Source of the DNA: Octopus sinensis
Lineage: Eukaryota
DNA: 48,667 nt
NCBI RefSeq assembly: GCF_006345805.1
Contig: NW_021834468.1
Coordinates: forward strand, 1-48,667
Direction of reading: 5' to 3'
In this document: piece by piece, positions 1,071-29,456 of the stretch
Position numbering within the stretch: the first letter of the stretch is position 1
Layout: each line of letters starts with the position of its first letter
Notes under the pieces: generated by a model
The model's database searches: none
What the model was told of the DNA's origin: nothing
Seen by the model: only the letters and a program-made list of their open reading frames with translations
Position numbers and translations under genes: made by a program

Positions 1071-2000
1071 GTCCTCTCCCTCTCACATTTCTTGGGCCTC
1101 TCTTTCTTTAACTCCCACTTTCCCCCCTCATTTATCTCCCCTGTACCTTTCCTTTTAACTCTGAATTTTTTTTCTAATCCTTCAATCCCGCTGCCCCCTA
1201 CCCCTCTCTCCTCCTTCCACATGACTTGTATCCGGCCCTCCATGATCTTTCTTTCTTGGCCTGGCTACCGACTGCCAACACCTCTTATGTCCATCTCCTA
1301 CGCTCCTGCCTTTAGGCTTTCACTTCATAACACGCCAGCTCAATTTGATTCGATCTCAGTCGAAAGACACCTGATGTTATTTTTTGTTGTTTGTATTTGT
1401 AATTGTGTACCATGTTCTCCTATTTTTGTCTTTGTTGTCGTACACATTCGCTAGCTTTCTTACAAAAAGTCTAATGCTCTTAGCATAGACTTTTTGGGGG
1501 GCAGCTAGATCGAACTGTCTTAAGTGTAACTTGCCTTACCTAATTGTTGTTTCTCCTGTTCGCCTTTGCATCGTCTATCTGTCCGAATGTTTTATTGTCC
1601 TCTATTGCGTTTCTGTTCCATTTCATATATATATACACACGCAGACACACGAGTTTCATTCTGTCGGCTTATTTATTTCACATAGACATTGCCGTAGCAG
1701 CAATTAAAATTTAATTACTCGTACAACATTCTCCGTGAATAAACGCCTCTATTACGTGAATTAACAAACACCTTGTTTGGTTCATATGTTTCTAATTCGC
1801 ATACTCACATACACACATGCATATGTACACATTCACACATGCACCTATACACATTCGCACATGAACATATATGACTATAAAACTAGCTGTGAAAATGTAT
1901 ATTATATTTCTGATAAATAACAGCATATTTTGTTCATGTGAATATAAATAATATATATATATATATAACCAAGAAAAAAGCAACAGGAATGGATTAGTAG

Positions 2001-2089
2001 TTTAGTACAATTGTTTCATACCGAGAATAATTTTATTTAAAACTGCAAGTATTGCAGCAAATACAAATGTCCAGTATTCAACAGCTAAA
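2001..2089 (-). ncRNA. Type I hammerhead ribozyme with mutated core (CUGUUGA), probably inactive
   Basis: Minus strand tttag-CTGTTGA-atac...gtat-GAA-ACAATTGT-A-ctaaa; A6>U relative to the 2414-2510 copy. Confidence 0.65.
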
Positions 2090-2413
2090 TCACATATATG
2101 TTTTCCAGACATCCTACAGAGTGTGTCTATCCTCATGAAGTATTAGGAGTGAGTTCTATGAAATTTAAAGTCAAATTATAAGCAGACCAAAATTGCTTTC
2201 TAATGATGCACAGTTTTATAAAAAGTTTTTAAAAAGAGTGTTAACATCCCAGAGAAGGTGAATCCATCCATAAAAGTGCAGATATAATTTCCGGAGACAT
2301 GAGGAAAGTTGTTGATCACACAGTGGTTCAATTTGACTTTAAATTTCATAGAACTCACTCCTAATACTTCATGAGGATAGACACACTCTCTAGGATGTCT
2401 GGAAAACATATAT

Positions 2414-2510
2414 GTAATTTAGCTGATGAATACTGGACATTTGTATTTGCTGCAATACTTGCAGCTTTAAATAAAATTGTTCTTGGTATGAAACAATTGT
2501 ACTAAACTAT
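2414..2510 (+). ncRNA. Type I hammerhead ribozyme
   Basis: Stem I tttag(2418-2422)/ctaaa(2502-2506); CTGATGA 2423-2429; stem II atac/gtat; GAA 2490-2492; palindromic stem III ACAATTGT; GUA triplet with cleavage after 2501. Confidence 0.8.
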
Positions 2511-2645
2511 TAATCCATTCTTGGTTATAATCACCCCACATTTTTTATGGTTGATACCATAAACAATTCTGCTGCATCTAAGTTAAGTGCCATATTCATT
2601 TGAATTCATTGGAATTCACTTGAATCATAATTGTTTTTGCTGACA

Positions 2646-4745: not shown

Positions 4746-5097
4746 TCACCCTCCTAATCCCGGAATCGATGGAAATAGTTTTTCGTTGAATGAGTTCCTG
4801 TCACCTCCCAACATTGCAAAATTAGGTTACTTAAAGTGAGCCTGGTAACTGATGGTTTTGGGATCTTGTTGTTTGTAATTTTTGGTGATCCATGGTGCAA
4901 CGAACAACATGGTAAAAATCCCTGCCATAAATTTGGTGTAGATGGGAAATATCAAATAATTCAATCACAACATATATTTAAATTCAACATGGATAAATTG
5001 AAATATTATTTTTCAGTATTTTATAATGTAAAATCTTAAATTATTGACACATTATTACTTATCTTATAACAGCAATGTCTGGAAAAATCATGGATTG

Positions 5098-5600
5098 CAT
5101 GGAAAAATGCAAGCATGAAAAATAAGATTCTTAAGATTATAAACCCGGAAAAGTACAGGACAAGTTATTATACCTGTAAGAGAATAGGACAAGCTATTAC
5201 TTCAAGTAAAGAATAAGAAACTTTTTACTAAAAATATTGCAGCTAAAATTAAAATTTGAATATTAAAAATCATTTTATTATAGTTTTCAGATAACACTAT
5301 ACATATTTAAGTACAATTTGGCAACTTTACTACTTTAAATACAGAAAATAGTGACTAATTAGAAAAACTTGCAAATTAGCTGAACAGTTTTGCGCAATAA
5401 AAGATGAGAACTCTAAAGAGTGATAAATTAGAAGAAGTGGCATTCTTTGGTGCAATATTTTAAGTAAAAACTTTCTTATTCTTTATTTTACTTGAAGTAC
5501 TAGTTTGTCCTATACGTTTACAGGTGTCATAACTTGTCCCGTACGTTTCCAGGTTTATAATCTTAAGAATATTACTTTTCATGCTTGCTTTTTTACCATG
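5098..5600. repeat. Diverged ~145-bp inverted repeat (foldback/MITE-like)
   Basis: CATGGAAAAATGCAAGCATGAAAA...AATATTGCA (5098-5241) versus TGCAATATT...TTTTCATGCTTGCTTTTTTACCATG (5451-5600). Confidence 0.7.
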
Positions 5601-5692: not shown

Positions 5693-8582
5693 TTATAACA
5701 CCTCGTTGTAAATAATGTTCTTTGTTTTTCCTTGTGGAGCATATATAAAAAGGTTTCTTTTGGTTCCTACTCTTGAGCAGCCAACATACAGTTGTCCATG
5801 CGAGAAGCAGGGCTCTTCCAAGAGAAGACCAGCTACAGAGAGGGTTTGACCCTGAGATTTGTTAATGGACATGGCAGAGCTGACACGAAGGGGGAATTGC
5901 AGTCTTCTGAATGTAAATGGAATTTCTGCTCCTGATGGAGTAAGAGGAATTCTTGGAATAAAGACGTCATCACCTTTTCCACATCCAGAAAGAATGATCG
6001 CCTCGATAACGTGCGACATCATTTTCTTTATCACCAGTCGTGTTCCATTGCAAAGTCTTGGTGATCCAGATTGCGGAGTAGCATTACAGGAGTTCCAACT
6101 TTAAGTGCTAATATGTGTGGAGGTAGTCCAGGAGGCTCCAGTGAATTGAGAAATTCAGGAGGATAGTTCACAACTTCATTTATATCTGGAATTGTATCAA
6201 CAGACTTGTAAGTGTGTATAGTGCCGGGAAGAGAATGCATTAGCTGTTGATTAATTTTGTTAACAGCGACGTTTTTTGGAGCTAATATTGCTCTTTCACA
6301 CAGCCAATTGTGATTTTGGTAGTTTTGTGTGAAGTTGGGATATTTTCGTTTTTGAGGTCATCTACAGAATTAACAACAGTGGAAAATGACCACACTCCCA
6401 TTTGTCCTGCAGCATCGCGAGGCATCGCCTGCACCTAGTGTCAAAATGTCCTGTGCAAACTTTGTGGACATTTTGTCGCCGTGTAGCTGAGCTCTCATGT
6501 TAGTGGTGAGACTGAGGATTCTAACATGATTCCACAGGGTAGAGGACTTTAGGCATGCTTGGACTTCATCTGCTCTAGTGCCTTTTGGAATGACAGGAAG
6601 AGTTTGCCTGAAATCATCTGACAACAGAAGCGTTACACCTCCCACTGGAGCCTGACAGTTTCGGATATCTTTCAGGGCTCTATCTAATGCTTCCAAAGCT
6701 CCCTTGTGAGCCATAGTGCACTCATCTCAGACAATTAGATGACACATTTTAAGTACTTGTCCCTGATCTGAGCTTTTGTTGATGTTGCATGAAGGCATTT
6801 CGGATGCTGCTACATTGAGAGGGAGTTTTAAAGTTGAGTGTGCTGTCCTGCCACCGGGTAACAAAGTAGCTGCAATGCCAGAGGAGGCTTCAGCCACTGC
6901 AATGTCCTGATGCTGCCTAACTTCTGCAAGGAGAAGCTTTGTAATAAATGTTTTTCCTGTCTCTCCAGGAGCATCGAGGAAGAAGATTCGTCCCTCGCGT
7001 TGGCGTACACTGTTAAGAATAGTTCTGTAGGCCTGTAGCTGGTCCGGAAGTAATTTAGGCTCATTTTCAACAATGTACTTTGAAAGCGCTTGAGTGTCGT
7101 AGGTTGTTTCACGAATGACAGCAGTGGGAAGGCTATTTGACTCTGACCTGAATGTTTGTGGCAGGTCATACGTCGACAATTCATTTCCACCCAGTTTAGC
7201 AATTCTGTCTTCAATGTCAATGAGTGTTTTGTTATATATTTCATTGCTGATACCCTCCATGTCAGCAGTTGAGCTTGGCGCTGAAAGCCTTCAGCCAGGT
7301 TGTCTCTATATTTGAACCATAGAGTGGTCGGATCACACAGTTCGCATGCCTGTAGTAATACTGCAAATAGTGCCCTGAGACTTTTAGGTGATTATGATAA
7401 AGCAGCCTCTCCTAAAGTTGCATCCCATTGTGCACCATCTTCTAACAGACCTTGTCGATAGCAGGCTTCTCTGTATGTTGTGCAGACATGTCCATGAACG
7501 GTTTTTAGGGCCTGGAAAGACGTCGGCCCTCTGACCTCATGCAGTAGTAGACAAAGGTAGAAGCACTGTTGTTGAGTGGGATGCACTATGTATATTCGCC
7601 CAAGGCAAGTGTGAAACTTAATGCCAGGGTATCCATGAACATTTTGACCTGCTTTCCGTGGTGCCCATTTTTTTCCATTCCAAGTGTAGTACGATGAAAT
7701 CTGTGGATACAGCAAAGTTCTTTTTTGAGCGAATGGATCCACTTGACAAAGCTTGAAGAATGCAGTGAGTGTGCTATCCCTTGGTTCCTCTGCCAACAGA
7801 GAAGCATTAGCATCGGTGAAGTACACTCTTTGACCATTTTCCAGGTGCACTGCAAGCTGTTGAATGGCGGGGTGTCGTTGGTGAATTGGAAAGCCAAAGA
7901 TGCGCCAGAAAACCTCGTTGCTACTTATGTACCGTCCCACCTGATAATGCGTCACCTCATCCTGGCAGTATTCTTGTTGAAGTCCAAACATTGCAGCGTC
8001 AGAACCCTTGTTTACATATTTGCAAACGTACTTGACGGATTTAACGGAATTGCAAAACTCAACGTTGATGTAGGCATTGAAAGTCTTTGACAGGAATGGG
8101 CAGTATGGAACAATCCATCTATTATCAATATCGTGCTGTCCGATAGTTGCTGTGAAACCTCCGTCTTCTGGTTTTCTGCGTCTGTATGATGGATACCCAT
8201 CAGCATCTGTCTGAGTTTCTTGTAGGAACCTCCTGGGAAATATTTTTGAACATATGCTGTCCTTCAAGCATGGTGAGTTTATGTTGAATCCACACCCACA
8301 TGGACCATGAACCATGTTTGCTTTAACTATTTCGTATAGTTCTTTGTCTAAAGCTGGATCAGGAAGCTCTGCAGAGATTATGATGTCGATGTCATTGGAA
8401 TTTATCTTCGCTGAGAGCCAAAGCTGAACATGAGCATGTGGAAGGCCCCTTTTTTTCCACTCGATTGTGTACATGTCACATTGTATGGGCCCAAAGACTT
8501 GCCCTTTTTGTATGAGCGCCATGAGAGAGATTAACTTGAGATGGAAAACTCGGGCGTTGAGATTCCGGTTCGAATGTAAGGC
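5693..8582 (-). pseudogene. Helitron Rep/Pif1-type helicase (RepHel), disrupted by stops and frameshifts, N-terminus missing
   Basis: HUH motif YTIEWKKRGLPHAH, Y2 motif KYVCKYVNKG, Walker A DAPGETGKT, ASSGIAATLLPGGRTAHS, DFRQTLPV, RRLQFPLRV, SINKSQGQTL, FSHGQLYVGCSRV, spread over five ORF pieces. Confidence 0.95.
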
Positions 8583-8689
8583 AGGTTTGAAAGTGTTCTC
8601 AACAGTTATTAGTTGTAGTGGTAGAGTGTTTATGCCGAATATGTACGTATGCATGTATATATATGTATGTATGCCTGTATATATGTACA

Positions 8690-8822
8690 AAATCCACTGA
8701 GAAGGCTTTTGTTGGTCTGAGGCTACAGCAGAAGACACATGCCAAGTCACCACACAGTGGGACTGAACCCAGGACTATGTGTTTGGAACGTAGTTTGTTA
8801 CCACACAGCCACACCTGCCCCT
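8690..8822 (-). mobile_element. tRNA/CORE-like SINE (family C), head fragment
   Basis: Reverse complement of GCAGGTGTGGCTGTGTGGTAA...GGTTCAGTCCCACTGTGTGG; matches the 22125-22538 and 43947-44260 copies. Confidence 0.75.
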
Positions 8823-9911: not shown

Positions 9912-10288
9912 AACAAACAAGAACAGACAAACGGATTCAGTCGATTAAATCGACCCCAATGCGCAACTTGTACTTATTTAATCGACACCGAAAGGATGAA
10001 AAGCAAAGTCGATCTCGGCGAAATTTGAACTCAGAACGTAACGACAGACCAAATACCTATTTCTTTACTACCCACAAGGGGCTAAACACAGAGGGGACAA
10101 ACAAGGACAGACAAACGGATTAAGTCGATTACATCGACCTCAGTGTGTAACTGGTACTTATTTAATCGACCCCCAAAGGATGAAAGGAAAAGTCGACCTC
10201 GGCGGAATTTGAACTCAGAACGTAGCGGCAGACGAAATACTGCTTAGCATTTCGTCCGGCATGCTAACGTTTCTGCCAACTCACCGCC
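9912..10288 (-). mobile_element. Family B SINE, dimeric (full unit plus internal restart)
   Basis: Two tandem blocks of TTCTGAGTTCAAATT..GCCGAG..TTTCATCCTTT..GTCGATTAAATAAGTAC on the minus strand. Confidence 0.9.
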
Positions 10289-10339
10289 TTTGTAATAACT
10301 ACAATGCCAATTGTTTTGTCTCAAGATATTCACGGGCAA

Positions 10340-10767
10340 GGCAGTGAGCTGGCAGAAACGTTAGCACGCCGGGCGAAATGCTTAGCAGTATTTCGTCTGT
10401 CGCTACGTTCTGAGTTCAAATTCCGCCGAGGTCGAATTTGCCTTTCATCCTTTCGGGGTCGATTAAATAAGTACCAGTTACGCACTGGGTCGATATAATC
10501 GACTTAATTCGTTTGATTGTCCTTGTTTGTCCTCTCTGTGTGTAGCCCCTTGTGGGCAGTAAAGAAATAAGAAACTTTAGCACGCCGGGCGAAATGCTTA
10601 GCGATATTTCGTCTGTTTTTAATTTCTGAGTTCAAATTCCACCGAGGTCGATTTTACCTTTTATCCTTTCAGGGTCAATAAATTAAGTATCAATTGCGTA
10701 CTGGGGTCGATTTAATCATCTGGCCTCCTCCCGCCAAATTTCGGGCCTTGTGCCTAGAGTAGAAAAG
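10340..10767 (+). mobile_element. Family B SINE, dimeric
   Basis: Full unit 10340-10570 followed by a second unit ending GGCCTTGTGCCTAGAGTAGAAAAG. Confidence 0.9.
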
Positions 10768-23756: not shown

Positions 23757-23863
23757 GTGTGTGGTGTGTTGTGTGTGTGAGGGGATATATATATAACTAT
23801 ATATATATGTGTGTGAGTGGATATAATATATATACATATATATATATGGATATATATACATAC

Positions 23864-23894
<31 letters not shown>

Positions 23895-24044
23895 ATAAAT
23901 AATATAAGAGAGTGGTCACTATATGGCTCACTCTAGCACCAGTTAATTCCAAAAGGTTTCAACCACGAAAATACATGTTTCCCATGAAAGTCGTACGATT
24001 GTTAGCTCACAACACGGACAGGCAAATAAAAAATAACAAAAATA

Positions 24045-24140
24045 CAGATTATTTTGGGACAATTGTTTCGCTATTAATGAATTAAATTAATTTTTACTTA
24101 CAAAAAAAACCATTTGTAGCTCGTCAGCCAAAACTATCTG
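24045..24140 (-). ncRNA. Type I hammerhead ribozyme, array copy 1
   Basis: Minus strand cagatagttttgg-CTGACGA-gcta...tagc-GAA-ACAATTGT-C-ccaaaataatctg; C17 at 24058. Confidence 0.9.
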
Positions 24141-24580
24141 GATGAAATCCACTCAATCACACGCCAGATTTTACCATAATACGAATAAATACGCGTGTGG
24201 TTCAATTGATTACATCCGACGTTATAATTCAAATGCCCCAACCACAGCGCGCCAAACTTTCACGGAAAACAAATACAGCATTTAGAAATAAATGCAGCAT
24301 AATATAATTAATTAATAAGGGTGAGAGAATTAGATACTAATTTAATAGTATATCTATTCAACACCAAGTGGCCTAGTGCTCTCCGAGAAACCTGGATTAT
24401 TATAATATTTTATAACATATTATAATATTTTTACAAAATAAATATAAGAGAGTGGTCACTATATGGCTCACTCTAGCACCATTTAATCCAAAAGGTTTCA
24501 ACCACGAAAATACATGTTCCCATGAAAGTCAGTACGATTGTTAGCTCACACGGACAGGCAAATAAAAAATAACAAAAATA

Positions 24581-24678
24581 CAGATTATTTTGGGACAATT
24601 GTTTCGCTATTAATGAATTAAATGTAATTTTACTTACAAAAAAAAATCCATTTGTAGCTCGTCAGCCAAAAATATCTG
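24581..24678 (-). ncRNA. Type I hammerhead ribozyme, array copy 2
   Basis: Same motif with one stem I variant; C17 at 24594. Confidence 0.88.
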
Positions 24679-25112
24679 GATGAAATCCACTCAATCACAC
24701 GCCAGATTTTACCATAACGATAAATACGCGTGTGGTTCAATTGATTACATCCGACGTTATAATTCAAATGCCCCACCAACAGCGCGCCAAACTTTCACGG
24801 AAAACAAATACAGCATTTAGAAATAAATGCAGCATATTATAATTAATTAATAAGGTGAGAGAATTAGATACTAATTTAATTATAGTATATCTAAACACCC
24901 AAGTGGCCTAGTGCTCCGAGAAACCTGGATTTTATAATATTTTATAACATATTATTAATTTTTACAAAATAAATATAGGAGAGTGGTCACTATATGGCTC
25001 ACTCTAGCACCAGTTAATCCAAAAGGTTTCAACCACGAAAATACATGTTTCCATGAAAGTCAGTACGATTGTTAGCTCACACGGACAGGGCAAATAAAAA
25101 ATAACAAAAATA

Positions 25113-25206
25113 CAGATTATTTTGGGACAATTGTTTCGCTATTAATGAATTAATGTATTTTACTTACAAAAAAAACCATTTGTAGCTCGTCAGCCAAAAC
25201 TATCTG
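25113..25206 (-). ncRNA. Type I hammerhead ribozyme, array copy 3
   Basis: Same motif; C17 at 25126. Confidence 0.9.
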
Positions 25207-25614
25207 GATGAAATCCACTCATCACACGCCAGATTTTACCATAACGATAAATACGCGTGTGGTTCAATTGATTACATCCGACGTTATAATTCAATGCCCC
25301 AACCAACAGCGCGCCAAACTTTCACGGAAAACAAATACAGCATTTAGAAATAAATGCAGCATAATTATAATTAATTAATAAGGGTGAGAGAATTAGATAC
25401 TAATTTAATAGTATATCTATTCAACACCAAGTGGCCTAGTGCTCTCGAGAAACCTGGATTATTATAATATTTTATAACATATTATAATATTTTTTAAAAT
25501 AAATATAAGAGAGTGGGTTGGGGCATTTGAATTATAACGTCGGATGTAATCAATTGAACCACACGCGTATTTATCGTTATGGTAAAATCTGGCGTGTGAT
25601 TGAGTGATTTCATC

Positions 25615-25708
25615 CAGATAGTTTTGGCTGACGAGCTACAAATGGATTTTTTTGAAGTAAATTACATTTAATTCATTAATAGCGAAACAATTGTCCCAAA
25701 ATAATCTG
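25615..25708 (+). ncRNA. Type I hammerhead ribozyme, array copy 4
   Basis: CTGACGA 25628-25634; gcta/tagc stem II; GAA 25684-25686; ACAATTGT 25687-25694; C17 at 25695; 13-bp stem I with one A-A mismatch. Confidence 0.9.
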
Positions 25709-26142
25709 TATTTTTGTTATTTTTTATTTGCCCTGTCGTGTGAGCTAACAATCGTACTGACTTTCATGGGAAACATGTATTTTCGTGGTTGAAACCTTTT
25801 GATTAACTGGTGCTAGAGTGAGCCATATAGTGACCACTCTCTTATATTTATTTTGTAAAAATATTATAATATGTTATAAAATATTATAATATCCAGGTTT
25901 CCGGAGCACTAGGCCACTTGGTGTGTGAATAGATATACTATTAAATTAGTATCTAATTCTCTCACCCTTATTAATTAATTATAATTATGCTGCATTTTTC
26001 TAAATGCTGTATTTGTTTTCCGTGAAAGTTTGGCGCGCTGTTGGTTGGGGCATTTGAATTATAACGTCGGATGTAATCAATTGAACCACACGCGTATTTA
26101 TCGTTATGGTAAAATCTGGCGTGTGATTGAGTGGATTTCATC

Positions 26143-26238
26143 CAGATAGTTTTGGCTGACGAGCTACAAATGGATTTTTTTGTAAGTAAAATTACATTTA
26201 ATTCATTAATAGCGAAACAATTGTCCCAAAATAATCTG
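26143..26238 (+). ncRNA. Type I hammerhead ribozyme, array copy 5
   Basis: CTGACGA 26156-26162; GAA 26214-26216; C17 at 26225, 530 nt after copy 4. Confidence 0.9.
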
Positions 26239-26505
26239 TATTTTTGTTATTTTTTATTTGCCCTGTCCGTGTGAGCTAACAATCGTACTGACTTTCATGG
26301 GAAACATGTATTTTCGTGGTTGAAACCTTTTGGATTAACTGGTGCTAGAGTGAGCCATATAGTGACCACTCTCTTATATTTATTTTGTAAAAATATTATA
26401 ATATGTTATAATATTATAATAATCCAGGTTTCTCGGAGCACTAGGCCACTTGGTGTTGAATAGATATACTATTAAATTAGTATCTAATTCTCTCACCCTT
26501 ATTAT

Positions 26506-26554
<49 letters not shown>

Positions 26555-26872
26555 CATATATGCTGCATATGTATGATATACATATGCACATACACATACA
26601 TACATTTATATATGCAAAGTTGGTATATCAAAAGTTCCCGAAGCAGTTTTACACACACACATACACACACTCACACACGAGTATAAGAATGAGCTATTAG
26701 CTAAATGCGAGATAATTAGTTAAATCTTTAGTGAATTATGTAAAATGAGGCAGGTGTGGTTTTAATAGAGAAACTGGCTGAGAAAGATTACTTTGAACAA
26801 TATTGAGTCAAATGACAGGAATAAAAGCGGTCTTCAATTAGTTAGCGATGGAGGTTCTTAGACGAGTCCATT

Positions 26873-29305
26873 ATGGCGGATCTGGCGCTGGTGGAGATGT
26901 TTGTGATTGAAGTTATGATGGTTGCAGTGGATCTGGTGTTGGTGGATGTGGTGGTGGAGAGGTTTGTGATTGATCATATGATGGTTGCGGTGGATCTGGT
27001 GTTGGCGGATCTGGTGCTGGTGGAGATGTTTGTGATTGAAGTTATGATGGTTGCAGTGGATCTGGTGTTGGTGGATGTGGTGGTGGAGAGGTTTGTGATT
27101 GATCTTATGATGGTTGCGGTGGATCTGGTGTTGGTGGATGTGGTGGTGGAGAGGTTTCTGATTGAAGTTATGATAATTGTGATGGATCTGATGCTGGAAG
27201 TGTTGGTGGAGAGGTTTGTGATTGATCTTATGATGGTTGCGATGGATCTGGTGTTGGTGGATGTGGTGGTGGAGAGGTTTCTGATTGAAGTTATGATAGT
27301 TGTGGTGGATCTGATGATGGAAGTGTTGGTGGAGAGGTTTGTGATTGATCTTATGATGGTTGCAGTGGATCTGGTGTTGGTGGATGTGGTGGTGGAGAGT
27401 TTTCTGATTGAAGTTATGATAGTTGTGGTGGATCTGATGTGGCGGATGTGGGTGGAGAGGTTTGTGATTGATCTTTGATAGTTGCAGTGGATCTGGTGGT
27501 GTGGAGAGTTTCTGATTGAAGTTATGATAGTTGTGGTGGATCTGATGTTGGCGGATGTGGTGGTGGAGAGGTTTGTGATTGATCTTATGATGGTTGCAGT
27601 GGATCTGGTGTTGGTGGATGTGGTGGTGGAGAGGTTTCTGATTGAAGTTATGATAGTTGTGGTGGATCTGATGTTGGCGGATGTGGTGGTGGAGAGGTTT
27701 GTGATTGATCTTATGATGGTTGTGGTGGATCTGGTGTTGGTGGATGTGGTGGTGGAGAGGTTTCTGATTGAAGTTATGATAGTTGTGGTGGATCTGATGT
27801 TGGCGGATGTGGTGGTGGAGAGGTTTGTGATTGATCTTATGATGGTTGCAGTGGATCTGGTGGTGGTGGAGAGGTTTCTGATTGAAGTTATGATAGTTGT
27901 GCTGGATCTGATGTTGGCGGATGTGGTGGTGGAGAGGTTTGTGATTGATCTTATGATGGTTGCGGTGGATCTGTTGGTGGTGGAGAGGTTTCTGATTGAA
28001 GTTATGATAGTTGTAGTGGATCTGATGTTGGTGGATGTGGTGGTGGAGAGGTTTGTGATTGATCTTATGATGGTTACAGTGGATCTGGTGTTGGTGGATC
28101 TGGCGATGGTGGAGATGTTTGTGATTGAAGTTATGATGGTTGCAGTGGATCTGGTGTTGGTGGATGTGGTGGTGGAGAGGTTTCTGATTGAAGTTATGAT
28201 AGTTGTGGTGGATCTGATGTTGGTGGATGTGGTGGTGGAGAGGTTTGTGATTGATCTTATGATGGTTGTGGTGGATCTGGTGTTGGTGGATGTGGTGGTG
28301 GAGAGGTTTCTGATTGAAGTTATGATAGTTGTGGTGGATCTGATGTTGGCGGATGTGGTGGTGGAGAGGTTTGTGATTGATCTTATGATGGTTGCAGTGG
28401 ATCTGGTGGTGGTGGTGGAGAGGTTTCTGATTGAAGTTATGATAGTTGTGGTGGATCTGATGTTGGCGGATGTGGCGGTGGAGAGGTTTGTGATTGATCT
28501 TATGATGGTTGCAGTGGATCTGGTGGTGGTGGAGAGGTTTCTGATTGAAGTTATGATAGTTGTGGTGGATCTGATGTTGGTGGATGTGGTGGTGGAGAGG
28601 TTTGTGATTGATCTTATGATGGTTGCAGTGGATCTGGTGTTGGTGGATGTGGTGGTGGAGAGGTTTCTGATTGAAGTTATGATAGTTGTGGTGGATCTGA
28701 TGTTGGTGGATGTGGTGATGGAGAGGTTTGTGATTGATCTTATGATGGTTGCAGTGGACCTGGTGTTGGTGGATGTGGTGGTGGAGAGGTTTCTGATTGA
28801 AGTTATGATAGTTGTGGTGGATCTGATGTTGGTGGATGTGGTGGTGGCGAGGTTTGTGATTGATCTTATGATGGTTGCGGTGGATCTGGTGGTGGTGGAG
28901 AGGTTTCTGATTGAAGTTATGATAGTTGTGGTGGATCTGATGTTGGTGGATGTGGTGGTGGCGAGGTTTGTGATTGATCTTATGATGGTTGCAGTGGATC
29001 TGGTGTTGGTGGATCTGGCGATGGTGGAGATGTTTGTGATTGAAGTTATGATGGTTGCAGTGGATCTGGTGTTGGTGGATGTGGTGGTGGAGAGGTTTCT
29101 GATTGAAGTTATGATAGTTGTGGTGGATCTGATGTTGGTGGATGTGGTGGTGGAGAGGTTTGTGATTGATCTTATGATGGTTGTGGTGGATCTGGTGTTG
29201 GTGGATGTGGTGGTGGAGAGGTTTCTTATTGAAGTTATGATAGTTGTGGTGGATCTGATGATGGAAGTGTTGGTGGAGAGGTTTGTGATTGATCTTATGA
29301 TGGTT
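26873..29305. repeat. 63-bp minisatellite with alternating A/B units (126-bp dimer) and 48/66-bp variants
   Basis: Units GTGGATCTGGTGTTGGTGGATGTGGTGGTGGAGAGGTTTCTGATTGAAGTTATGATAGTTGTG and GTGGATCTGATGTTGGYGGATGTGGTGGTGGAGAGGTTTGTGATTGATCTTATGATGGTTGCA. Confidence 0.95.
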
Positions 29306-29456
29306 GATGGTGGTAGTAGCGATGGTTGTGTATGGTGTATGTTGTACGTTGTTGATAATGATGATGGTAGTGGCGGGATGGTGGTGGTGATGATAATGAT
29401 AATAACGATAATTGTAGTGGGGGAGTGGAAGTGGTAGTGGCGATGATGAAGATGAC

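What the first reader, a model, noticed from the sequence alone, without database searches (positions are those of the whole stretch)
23896..26511. Young ~530-nt tandem array with one intact hammerhead ribozyme per unit: candidate cephalopod retrozyme/circRNA element
Seen: five near-identical copies of cagatagttttgg-CUGACGA-gcua...uagc-GAA-ACAAUUGU-C-ccaaaauaaucug, with all core nucleotides intact, a GUC triplet and a 13-bp stem I. Cleavage sites are 536, 532 and 530 nt apart, there is no ORF, and copy differences are mostly small indels. Established: tandem non-coding repeats with one type I hammerhead per monomer define non-LTR retrozymes and Penelope pLTRs, and self-cleavage of multimeric transcripts releases monomers that can circularise. 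Inference: this array is a reverse-transcribed concatemer of a ~530-nt, possibly circular, RNA mobilised in trans by a Penelope-like RT. I cannot tell from the window whether this family has been described.
Basis: partly seen in the sequence, partly recalled or inferred. Interest (0 to 1): 0.92.

Follow-up and report, generated by a model that had tools for sequence, protein, structure and literature searches.

The report
Two-ended ribozyme retroelement with fixed ends
This is a small non-coding mobile element with a self-cutting RNA motif, present at hundreds of places in this animal genome, whose insertions look as if one RNA circle had been copied round and round from both broken DNA strands, a copying step that was proposed for such elements but which I did not find shown in genomes.

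Summary
The five type I hammerheads are real, but the array is not head-to-tail: three units lie on the minus strand and two on the plus, joined head-to-head at 25516. It belongs to a young dispersed family (at least 562 insertions) of ~535-nt non-coding units, a non-LTR retrozyme: a known kind, which this scan also found in sea squirts. The insertion anatomy is the new part. Arms point outward into (TA)n and stop at two fixed sites 130 nt apart (A, B). Among 100 insertions, 65-66 pair A with B and none pair A+A or B+B. Both arms carry the same sequence variant (45 of 49; 0.17 by chance), and private variants are fixed over up to 11 units. A sister family at 75% identity keeps both ends and compensatory ribozyme pairs. 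Best model: a Penelope-like RT/GIY-YIG enzyme primes from both target strands on one circular RNA and rolls round it. Intact TA-targeting Penelope-like elements are in the genome, but the partner is not identified. Cleavage, circles and expression are untested. An A-to-I editing signal failed replication.

The parts
23785..23895 (.). left (TA)n-type flank, probable target
23896..25516 (-). B arm: about 3.0 units, 5' end at unit position 140, 3' end at fixed site B (unit position ~161, counted from the ribozyme cut)
24045..24140 (-). type I hammerhead, cut after 24058
24581..24678 (-). type I hammerhead, cut after 24594 (extra stem I mismatch)
25113..25206 (-). type I hammerhead, cut after 25126
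25516..25516 (.). head-to-head inversion junction, 1-nt overlap (unit positions 140 and 352)
25516..26511 (+). A arm: about 1.9 units, 5' end at unit position 352, 3' end at fixed site A (unit position ~291)
25615..25708 (+). type I hammerhead, cut after 25695
25696..26225 (+). one cut-to-cut monomer, 530 nt (536 nt in the reference unit of L033), the predicted circle
26143..26238 (+). type I hammerhead, cut after 26225; stem III is the palindrome ACAAUUGU
26512..26561 (.). right (TA)n flank, probable target

Best explanation
A non-autonomous Penelope-type retrozyme. Inferred: arrays are transcribed, the hammerhead cuts out ~535-nt monomers and a host ligase closes them. Inferred: a Penelope-like RT/GIY-YIG protein cuts both strands of a (TA)n tract; one 3' end primes at site A and the other at site B, 130 nt apart on the same circle; each RT rolls for a variable distance (under 0.1 to about 17 turns) with strand displacement; the two cDNA ends are joined bluntly or through 1-4 nt. 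If only one primer is productive, a one-armed insertion results. Shown: head-to-head arms, two base-exact outer ends in (TA)n, strict A+B pairing, random inner junction, one variant set per insertion, conserved ribozyme and a sense-strand-specific fold.
For: Ends: 34 A and 34 B ends among the first 40 insertions stop at the same few bases and run into TA repeats; 2 further arm ends stop elsewhere. Pairing: 28 of 28 with both ends intact in the set not anchored on an end; 55 A+B of 80 (with two offsetting corrections); 9 by script and 10-11 by eye of 20 more; never A+A or B+B. Sister family (~75% identity): 22 of 25 two-arm loci that I read from the coordinates are A+B, 3 have an incomplete partner. 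One template: arms fully concordant in 45 of 49 (null mean 0.17, max 0.35) and 6 of 8 (null 0.11), although 55 insertions hold 17 haplotypes. Private variants are fixed in both arms over 8-11 units (L046, L054, L104). 5' ends do not pile up at the cut (1 of 161) or at the other start site (3 of 92, 4 of 69), and in 31 of 58 two-arm insertions both arms run through the other's start. 210 of 252 passes through the cut site are exact over 32 nt. Core invariant in 61-64 insertions except position 7 (11 vary) and one U4C insertion. Stem I has two compensatory pairs in the sister family. Circular fold -151 kcal/mol, z -6.1; the antisense strand gives -111, at shuffle level. Intact 781-aa RT+GIY-YIG elements end in (TA)n with a 37-nt tail, and one head-to-head copy (L136) has the tail on one arm only. 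PMC11167929: a Penelope-like protein cuts and extends both strands, starts at two internal RNA sites and is predicted to be a dimer.
Against: No RNA, cleavage or circle was observed. 17 variant sites in 11 insertions are carried by only some units, several in blocks (L052, L054), which a pure one-monomer template does not give without later conversion or assembly error. The lowest-energy fold pairs part of the core with the cut triplet, so cleavage could be slow and uncut multimers could persist. No sequence shared with any Penelope-like locus fetched. PMC11167929 found no strand preference between its two start sites and found ribozyme cleavage unnecessary in vitro. Junction overlap is not clearly above chance: mean 1.57 against 0.75, inflated by one 12-nt case.
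Confidence: 0.6

Rival explanations
1. Same element and enzyme, but the template is an uncut linear multimer from a homogeneous donor array (or two RNAs from the one donor active at the time), primed at A and B; no circle is used in the insertion step.
For: Arrays of about 17 units exist (L086 with L153), long enough to template most insertions. The core can be blocked in the predicted fold. Block-wise partial variants occur. PMC11167929 found unprocessed RNA to be the main substrate in vitro.
Against: Variants seen in only one of 100 insertions are fixed over 8-11 units in both arms. A-arm 5' ends do not stop at site B as simple twin priming predicts. The ribozyme core is conserved and stem I covaries. 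Some monomer-to-array step is still needed to make homogeneous donors.
Confidence: 0.27
2. Arrays arise or are homogenised at the DNA level after a short insertion (unequal crossing-over, gene conversion or rolling-circle DNA replication), as satellite models propose (bioRxiv 10.64898/2026.07.22.740005, discussion).
For: Tandem units can recombine; partial variants in blocks; three whole insertions are duplicated with their junctions (dropped).
Against: Concordance spans an inversion and holds for short arms without tandem copies. Each arm begins at a random phase and ends at a fixed site. DNA amplification does not explain the strict A+B rule or strand-specific structure.
Confidence: 0.08
3. 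The units are the pseudo-LTR of an autonomous Penelope-like element not yet found, so these are truncated copies and not an independent retrozyme.
For: Penelope-type ends, target and inversion. Retrozymes are related to pLTRs in frogs (bioRxiv 10.64898/2026.07.22.740005). Only 150 of 5030 GIY-YIG candidates were scored.
Against: Long arms are pure unit repeats up to about 9 kb, with TA repeats outside and the other arm inside. 9 of 10 single-arm 5' ends abut TA repeats. No similarity to 33 Penelope-like loci beyond AT-rich chance matches and two neighbouring insertions.
Confidence: 0.05

Closest known systems
Metazoan non-LTR retrozymes (Cervera and de la Pena 2020, PMC7229834; coral, mussel, axolotl)
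   Same: Non-coding, low-GC tandem units with one type I hammerhead each, a two-pair stem III with a tetraloop, a stable predicted circle and coexisting Penelope-like elements.
   Different: Unit of ~535 nt against ~170-400 nt (but within the 51-972 bp of bioRxiv 10.64898/2026.07.22.740005). Head-to-head two-arm insertions with two fixed ends are not mentioned in the main text ('inverted' and 'orientation': 0 occurrences). Circle-templated tandem cDNA is stated there as a hypothesis.
Endonuclease-bearing Penelope-like elements (PMC3846280, PMC8557442, PMC11167929)
   Same: An inverted 5'-truncated copy head-to-head, a 'tail' at one end only, two RT start sites, AT-rich or (TA)n targets, a type I hammerhead.
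   Different: No ORF. The distance between the two ends is 130 nt, not 30-40. The pairing is strict in this sample. Both arms can be multimers of one monomer variant.
L1 twin priming (recalled, not read here)
   Same: Both target strands prime and give an inversion.
   Different: The second start site is fixed, and arms overlap and run through each other's start, which needs a circle, a multimer or two RNAs.

Membership tests
non-LTR retrozyme | tandem units, each with a type I hammerhead | tested here: met
   (1573 exact-pattern ribozymes, sister family included); no Rfam model hit
non-LTR retrozyme | no protein-coding ORF, low GC | tested here: met
   no ORF of 120 aa or more; GC about 0.32
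non-LTR retrozyme | dispersed genomic copies | tested here: met
   562 exact A ends and 345 exact B ends, 0 for reversed controls
non-LTR retrozyme | no LTR, PBS or PPT | tested here: inconclusive
   no terminal direct repeats beyond the units; no tRNA gene in the window; PBS and PPT not searched
non-LTR retrozyme | self-cleavage of transcripts | not testable with these tools
   only conservation and covariation
non-LTR retrozyme | accumulation as circular RNA | not testable with these tools
   only contigs of runs guessed to be RNA were available
non-LTR retrozyme | target-site duplication longer than 4 bp when present | tested here: inconclusive
   flanks are TA repeats, so a duplication cannot be read
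non-LTR retrozyme | autonomous Penelope-like elements in the same genome | tested here: met
   781-aa and 775-aa RT + GIY-YIG ORFs with a Cys linker before the nuclease; RT score just under the Pfam cut-off
autonomous Penelope-like element (pLTR) | unit adjoins an RT + GIY-YIG ORF | tested here: not met
   ORF scans on 52 stretches; arm boundaries on all 100 insertions; no homology to Penelope-like loci
Penelope-type insertion signature | inverted 5'-truncated copy, tail at one end only, microsatellite target | tested here: met
   definitions from PMC8557442 and PMC3846280 passages

The most novel reading that the evidence does not exclude
One circular ribozyme RNA is reverse-transcribed by two RT active sites of a Penelope-like dimer, primed from both strands of a cut (TA)n target at two fixed sites 130 nt apart, each rolling round the circle. 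This would be genomic proof of rolling-circle reverse transcription of a retrozyme circle, and a general explanation of the inverted repeat and one-sided tail of Penelope-like elements.
Probability: 0.5. Interest if true: 0.8.

Novelty: new variant of a known kind. Interest (0 to 1): 0.62.

Why it matters
How Penelope-like elements make their inverted repeats and one-sided tails is described as undefined (PMC8557442 passages), and circle-templated tandem cDNA for animal retrozymes is a hypothesis (PMC7229834 discussion). This family gives hundreds of young insertions that carry natural sequence barcodes. They turn both questions into countable predictions (A+B only; both arms from one molecule) and supply a 535-nt RNA with two mapped start sites for an in vitro test.

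Tried and rejected
A-to-I editing inherited from the RNA. First pass: fixed A>G 22 against T>C 10 (p=0.0035) and UAG context enriched (p=0.015). Polarised on the sister family it fell to 13 against 10 (p=0.12); new variants in the replicate were 2 against 2; insertions with private A>G against private T>C were 9 and 7. Not supported. A>G differences at window 26279 and 26287 in runs X1 and X5, nearly absent in X15, stay a weak hint, because the run type is a guess and individuals differ. Expression: no RNA holder listed on record. Contigs of three runs guessed to be RNA cover parts of the unit and cross the cut site; this shows neither strand, ends nor circles. Run-off from linear cut monomers: 1 of 161 5' ends near the cut. 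Simple twin priming with collision: 3 of 92. Fold-back self-priming as the rule: only 3 of 30 junctions have both 5' ends within 7 nt of the same position. Rfam: no hammerhead hit. Partner search: no shared sequence with 33 Penelope-like loci; sister-ribozyme loci were retrozymes, not pLTRs. Ribozyme pattern in metagenome and viral contigs: 0 and 0. Literature searches for a prior description found none of this family or of the A+B rule. The library lacks most subscription papers and Repbase, and the supplement of PMC7229834 (with its model figure S9) and the bioRxiv supplements could not be read, so a prior description is not excluded.

Full report
Observation. The five hammerhead motifs, their cut sites and the spacings 536, 532 and 530 nt are as stated, and no ORF of 120 aa or more overlaps them. 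The layout is not as stated: a minus arm 23896-25516 and a plus arm 25516-26511 meet head-to-head, and their 3' ends (ribozyme sense) face outward into TA repeats. Rfam does not recognise the ribozyme. The call rests on the core motif, on folds better than shuffles (z -2.3 to -5.0), on a core that is invariant in 61-64 insertions except at position 7 and in one U4C insertion, and on two compensatory stem I pairs in a sister family (only two lineages, so few independent events). The lowest-energy fold pairs part of the core with the cut triplet, so activity is not assured.

Family. The genome (2.72 Gb) holds copies at 94-99% identity on many chromosomes (40 of 965 candidates scored). Exact patterns give 562 A-type and 345 B-type ends and 1573 ribozymes, sister family included. 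I mapped 100 insertions. 40 were chosen for holding a full unit. 34 of the 36 chromosome-1 A ends were taken without further choice (the other 2 were already in the first set), plus 6 stretches picked as odd pairs. 20 of 40 planned chromosome-2 A ends served as a replicate. Three segmental duplicates were dropped before counting.

Two fixed ends. Counting from the cut, arms end at ~291 (A) or ~161 (B), to within a few bases, and run into (TA)n. In the first set, which was not anchored on either end, 28 of 28 two-arm insertions with both ends intact are A+B; 2 more have one arm ending elsewhere and 10 have one arm. Over 80 insertions the script gave 55 A+B, 18 A only, 4 B only and 3 with another end. 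L082 moves to 'another end' and L086 moves to A+B, with an A arm of about 17 units; one more is cut by the fetch edge. The replicate gave 9 A+B, 8 A only and 3 other by script, and 10-11 A+B, 4 other and 5 A only by eye. No A+A or B+B was seen; the A-anchored sets could not have shown B+B. The inner junction is at random phase: 9 blunt, 13 with 1-4 nt overlap, 1 with 12 nt and 7 with 3-15 extra bases, of 30. An older sister family (~75% identity) keeps both ends; from the coordinates I read 22 A+B of 25 two-arm loci (one probably a duplicate, 3 with incomplete partners).

One template per insertion. 55 well-covered insertions fall into 17 haplotypes, yet the two arms agree at all shared polymorphic sites in 45 of 49 insertions (permutation mean 0.17, max 0.35) and in 6 of 8 in the replicate (0.11). 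The six exceptions each differ at one site. Variants seen in a single insertion are fixed in both arms over 8-11 units (L046, L054, L104). Against this, 17 sites in 11 insertions are carried by only some units. Arms cross the cut site without a scar (210 of 252 exact over 32 nt, the rest small scattered differences), 5' ends do not pile up there (1 of 161), and 77 of 92 A arms run through site B. The sense strand folds as a stable circle (z -6.1) and the antisense strand does not; 9 of 124 consensus pairs show double changes.

Partner. The genome has young RT + GIY-YIG elements with intact 781-aa ORFs and a second type of 775 aa. Both have a Cys linker before the nuclease, which PMC8557442 links to Neptune/Nematis elements and microsatellite targeting. 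The 781-aa family ends in (TA)n at two sites 37 nt apart, and one head-to-head copy has the tail on one arm only. No sequence is shared with the retrozyme, so the partner is a candidate only.

Mechanism. Shown: geometry, fixed ends, pairing rule, single haplotype, conserved ribozyme. Inferred: transcription, cleavage, ligation, priming from both target strands at A and B on one circle, rolling synthesis, end joining (0.6). The main rival is a homogeneous uncut multimer or two RNAs from one donor (0.27). DNA-level homogenisation (0.08) and an unfound autonomous parent (0.05) are less likely. An apparent A-to-I editing signal did not survive polarisation or replication.

Literature seen. PMC7229834: passages and parts 3-4 of 6 of the text, supplement unreadable. 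bioRxiv 10.64898/2026.07.22.740005: parts 1-3 of 5. PMC11167929: parts 1-2 of 4. PMC3846280, PMC8557442, PMC6962438 and PMC7761336: passages only. Retrozymes, inverted Penelope copies, one-sided tails and two RT start sites are all known, and hammerheads were counted in a squid genome (PMC6962438). Eight searches did not show this family, a strict pairing rule or haplotype evidence for one template; Repbase and most subscription papers were not searchable. Earlier notes of this scan list retrozymes in sea squirts and a ribozyme-free tandem element with an inverted head; I did not check them.

Verdict. A real, young retrozyme: a new variant of a known kind. The element class is ordinary. The insertion record makes an open mechanistic question directly testable. 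Interest 0.62.

Noticed in passing
L142-L149 (e.g. L145:5990-6747): Older sister retrozyme family, ~75% identical, ~500-nt unit, same A and B ends, 2305 search candidates.
   Followed up: partly
L132:6286-7370; L144 ~4990-5300: A third, unrelated hammerhead family (3581 candidates). In L132 it ends at TA repeats at two sites about 140 nt apart, and 4 of 40 scored loci show an inverted partner arm ending at or near the shorter site.
   Followed up: partly
L124-L141: Young Penelope-like family with an extra upstream ~479-aa ORF before the 781-aa RT-GIY-YIG ORF, and a degenerate hammerhead-like motif just before its 3' end.
   Followed up: partly
L124:884-2537 and 6817-8472: About 1.1 kb of apparent flank is duplicated with the element's terminal repeat at 99.8% identity and holds a hammerhead-like motif; possible 3' transduction.
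   Followed up: no
L104: An 11-unit insertion has a U4C change in the ribozyme core fixed in all units of both arms.
   Followed up: no
window 5693-8774 (-): Fragments that look like Helitron Rep/helicase by recall.
   Followed up: no
window 26889-29313: 63-nt minisatellite, about 39 copies, strongly G-skewed, open in several frames (His-rich or Thr/Ser/Ile-rich).
   Followed up: no
window 1984-2523 and 10141-10487: Inverted repeats of 194 nt (96%) and 150 nt (93%); the second belongs to a dispersed repeat also near 933, 10570, 22868 and 34849.
   Followed up: no
window 26279-26291: Clustered A>G differences in contigs of two runs guessed to be RNA, two of them nearly absent in a DNA-sized run; possible editing, unproven.
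   Followed up: partly
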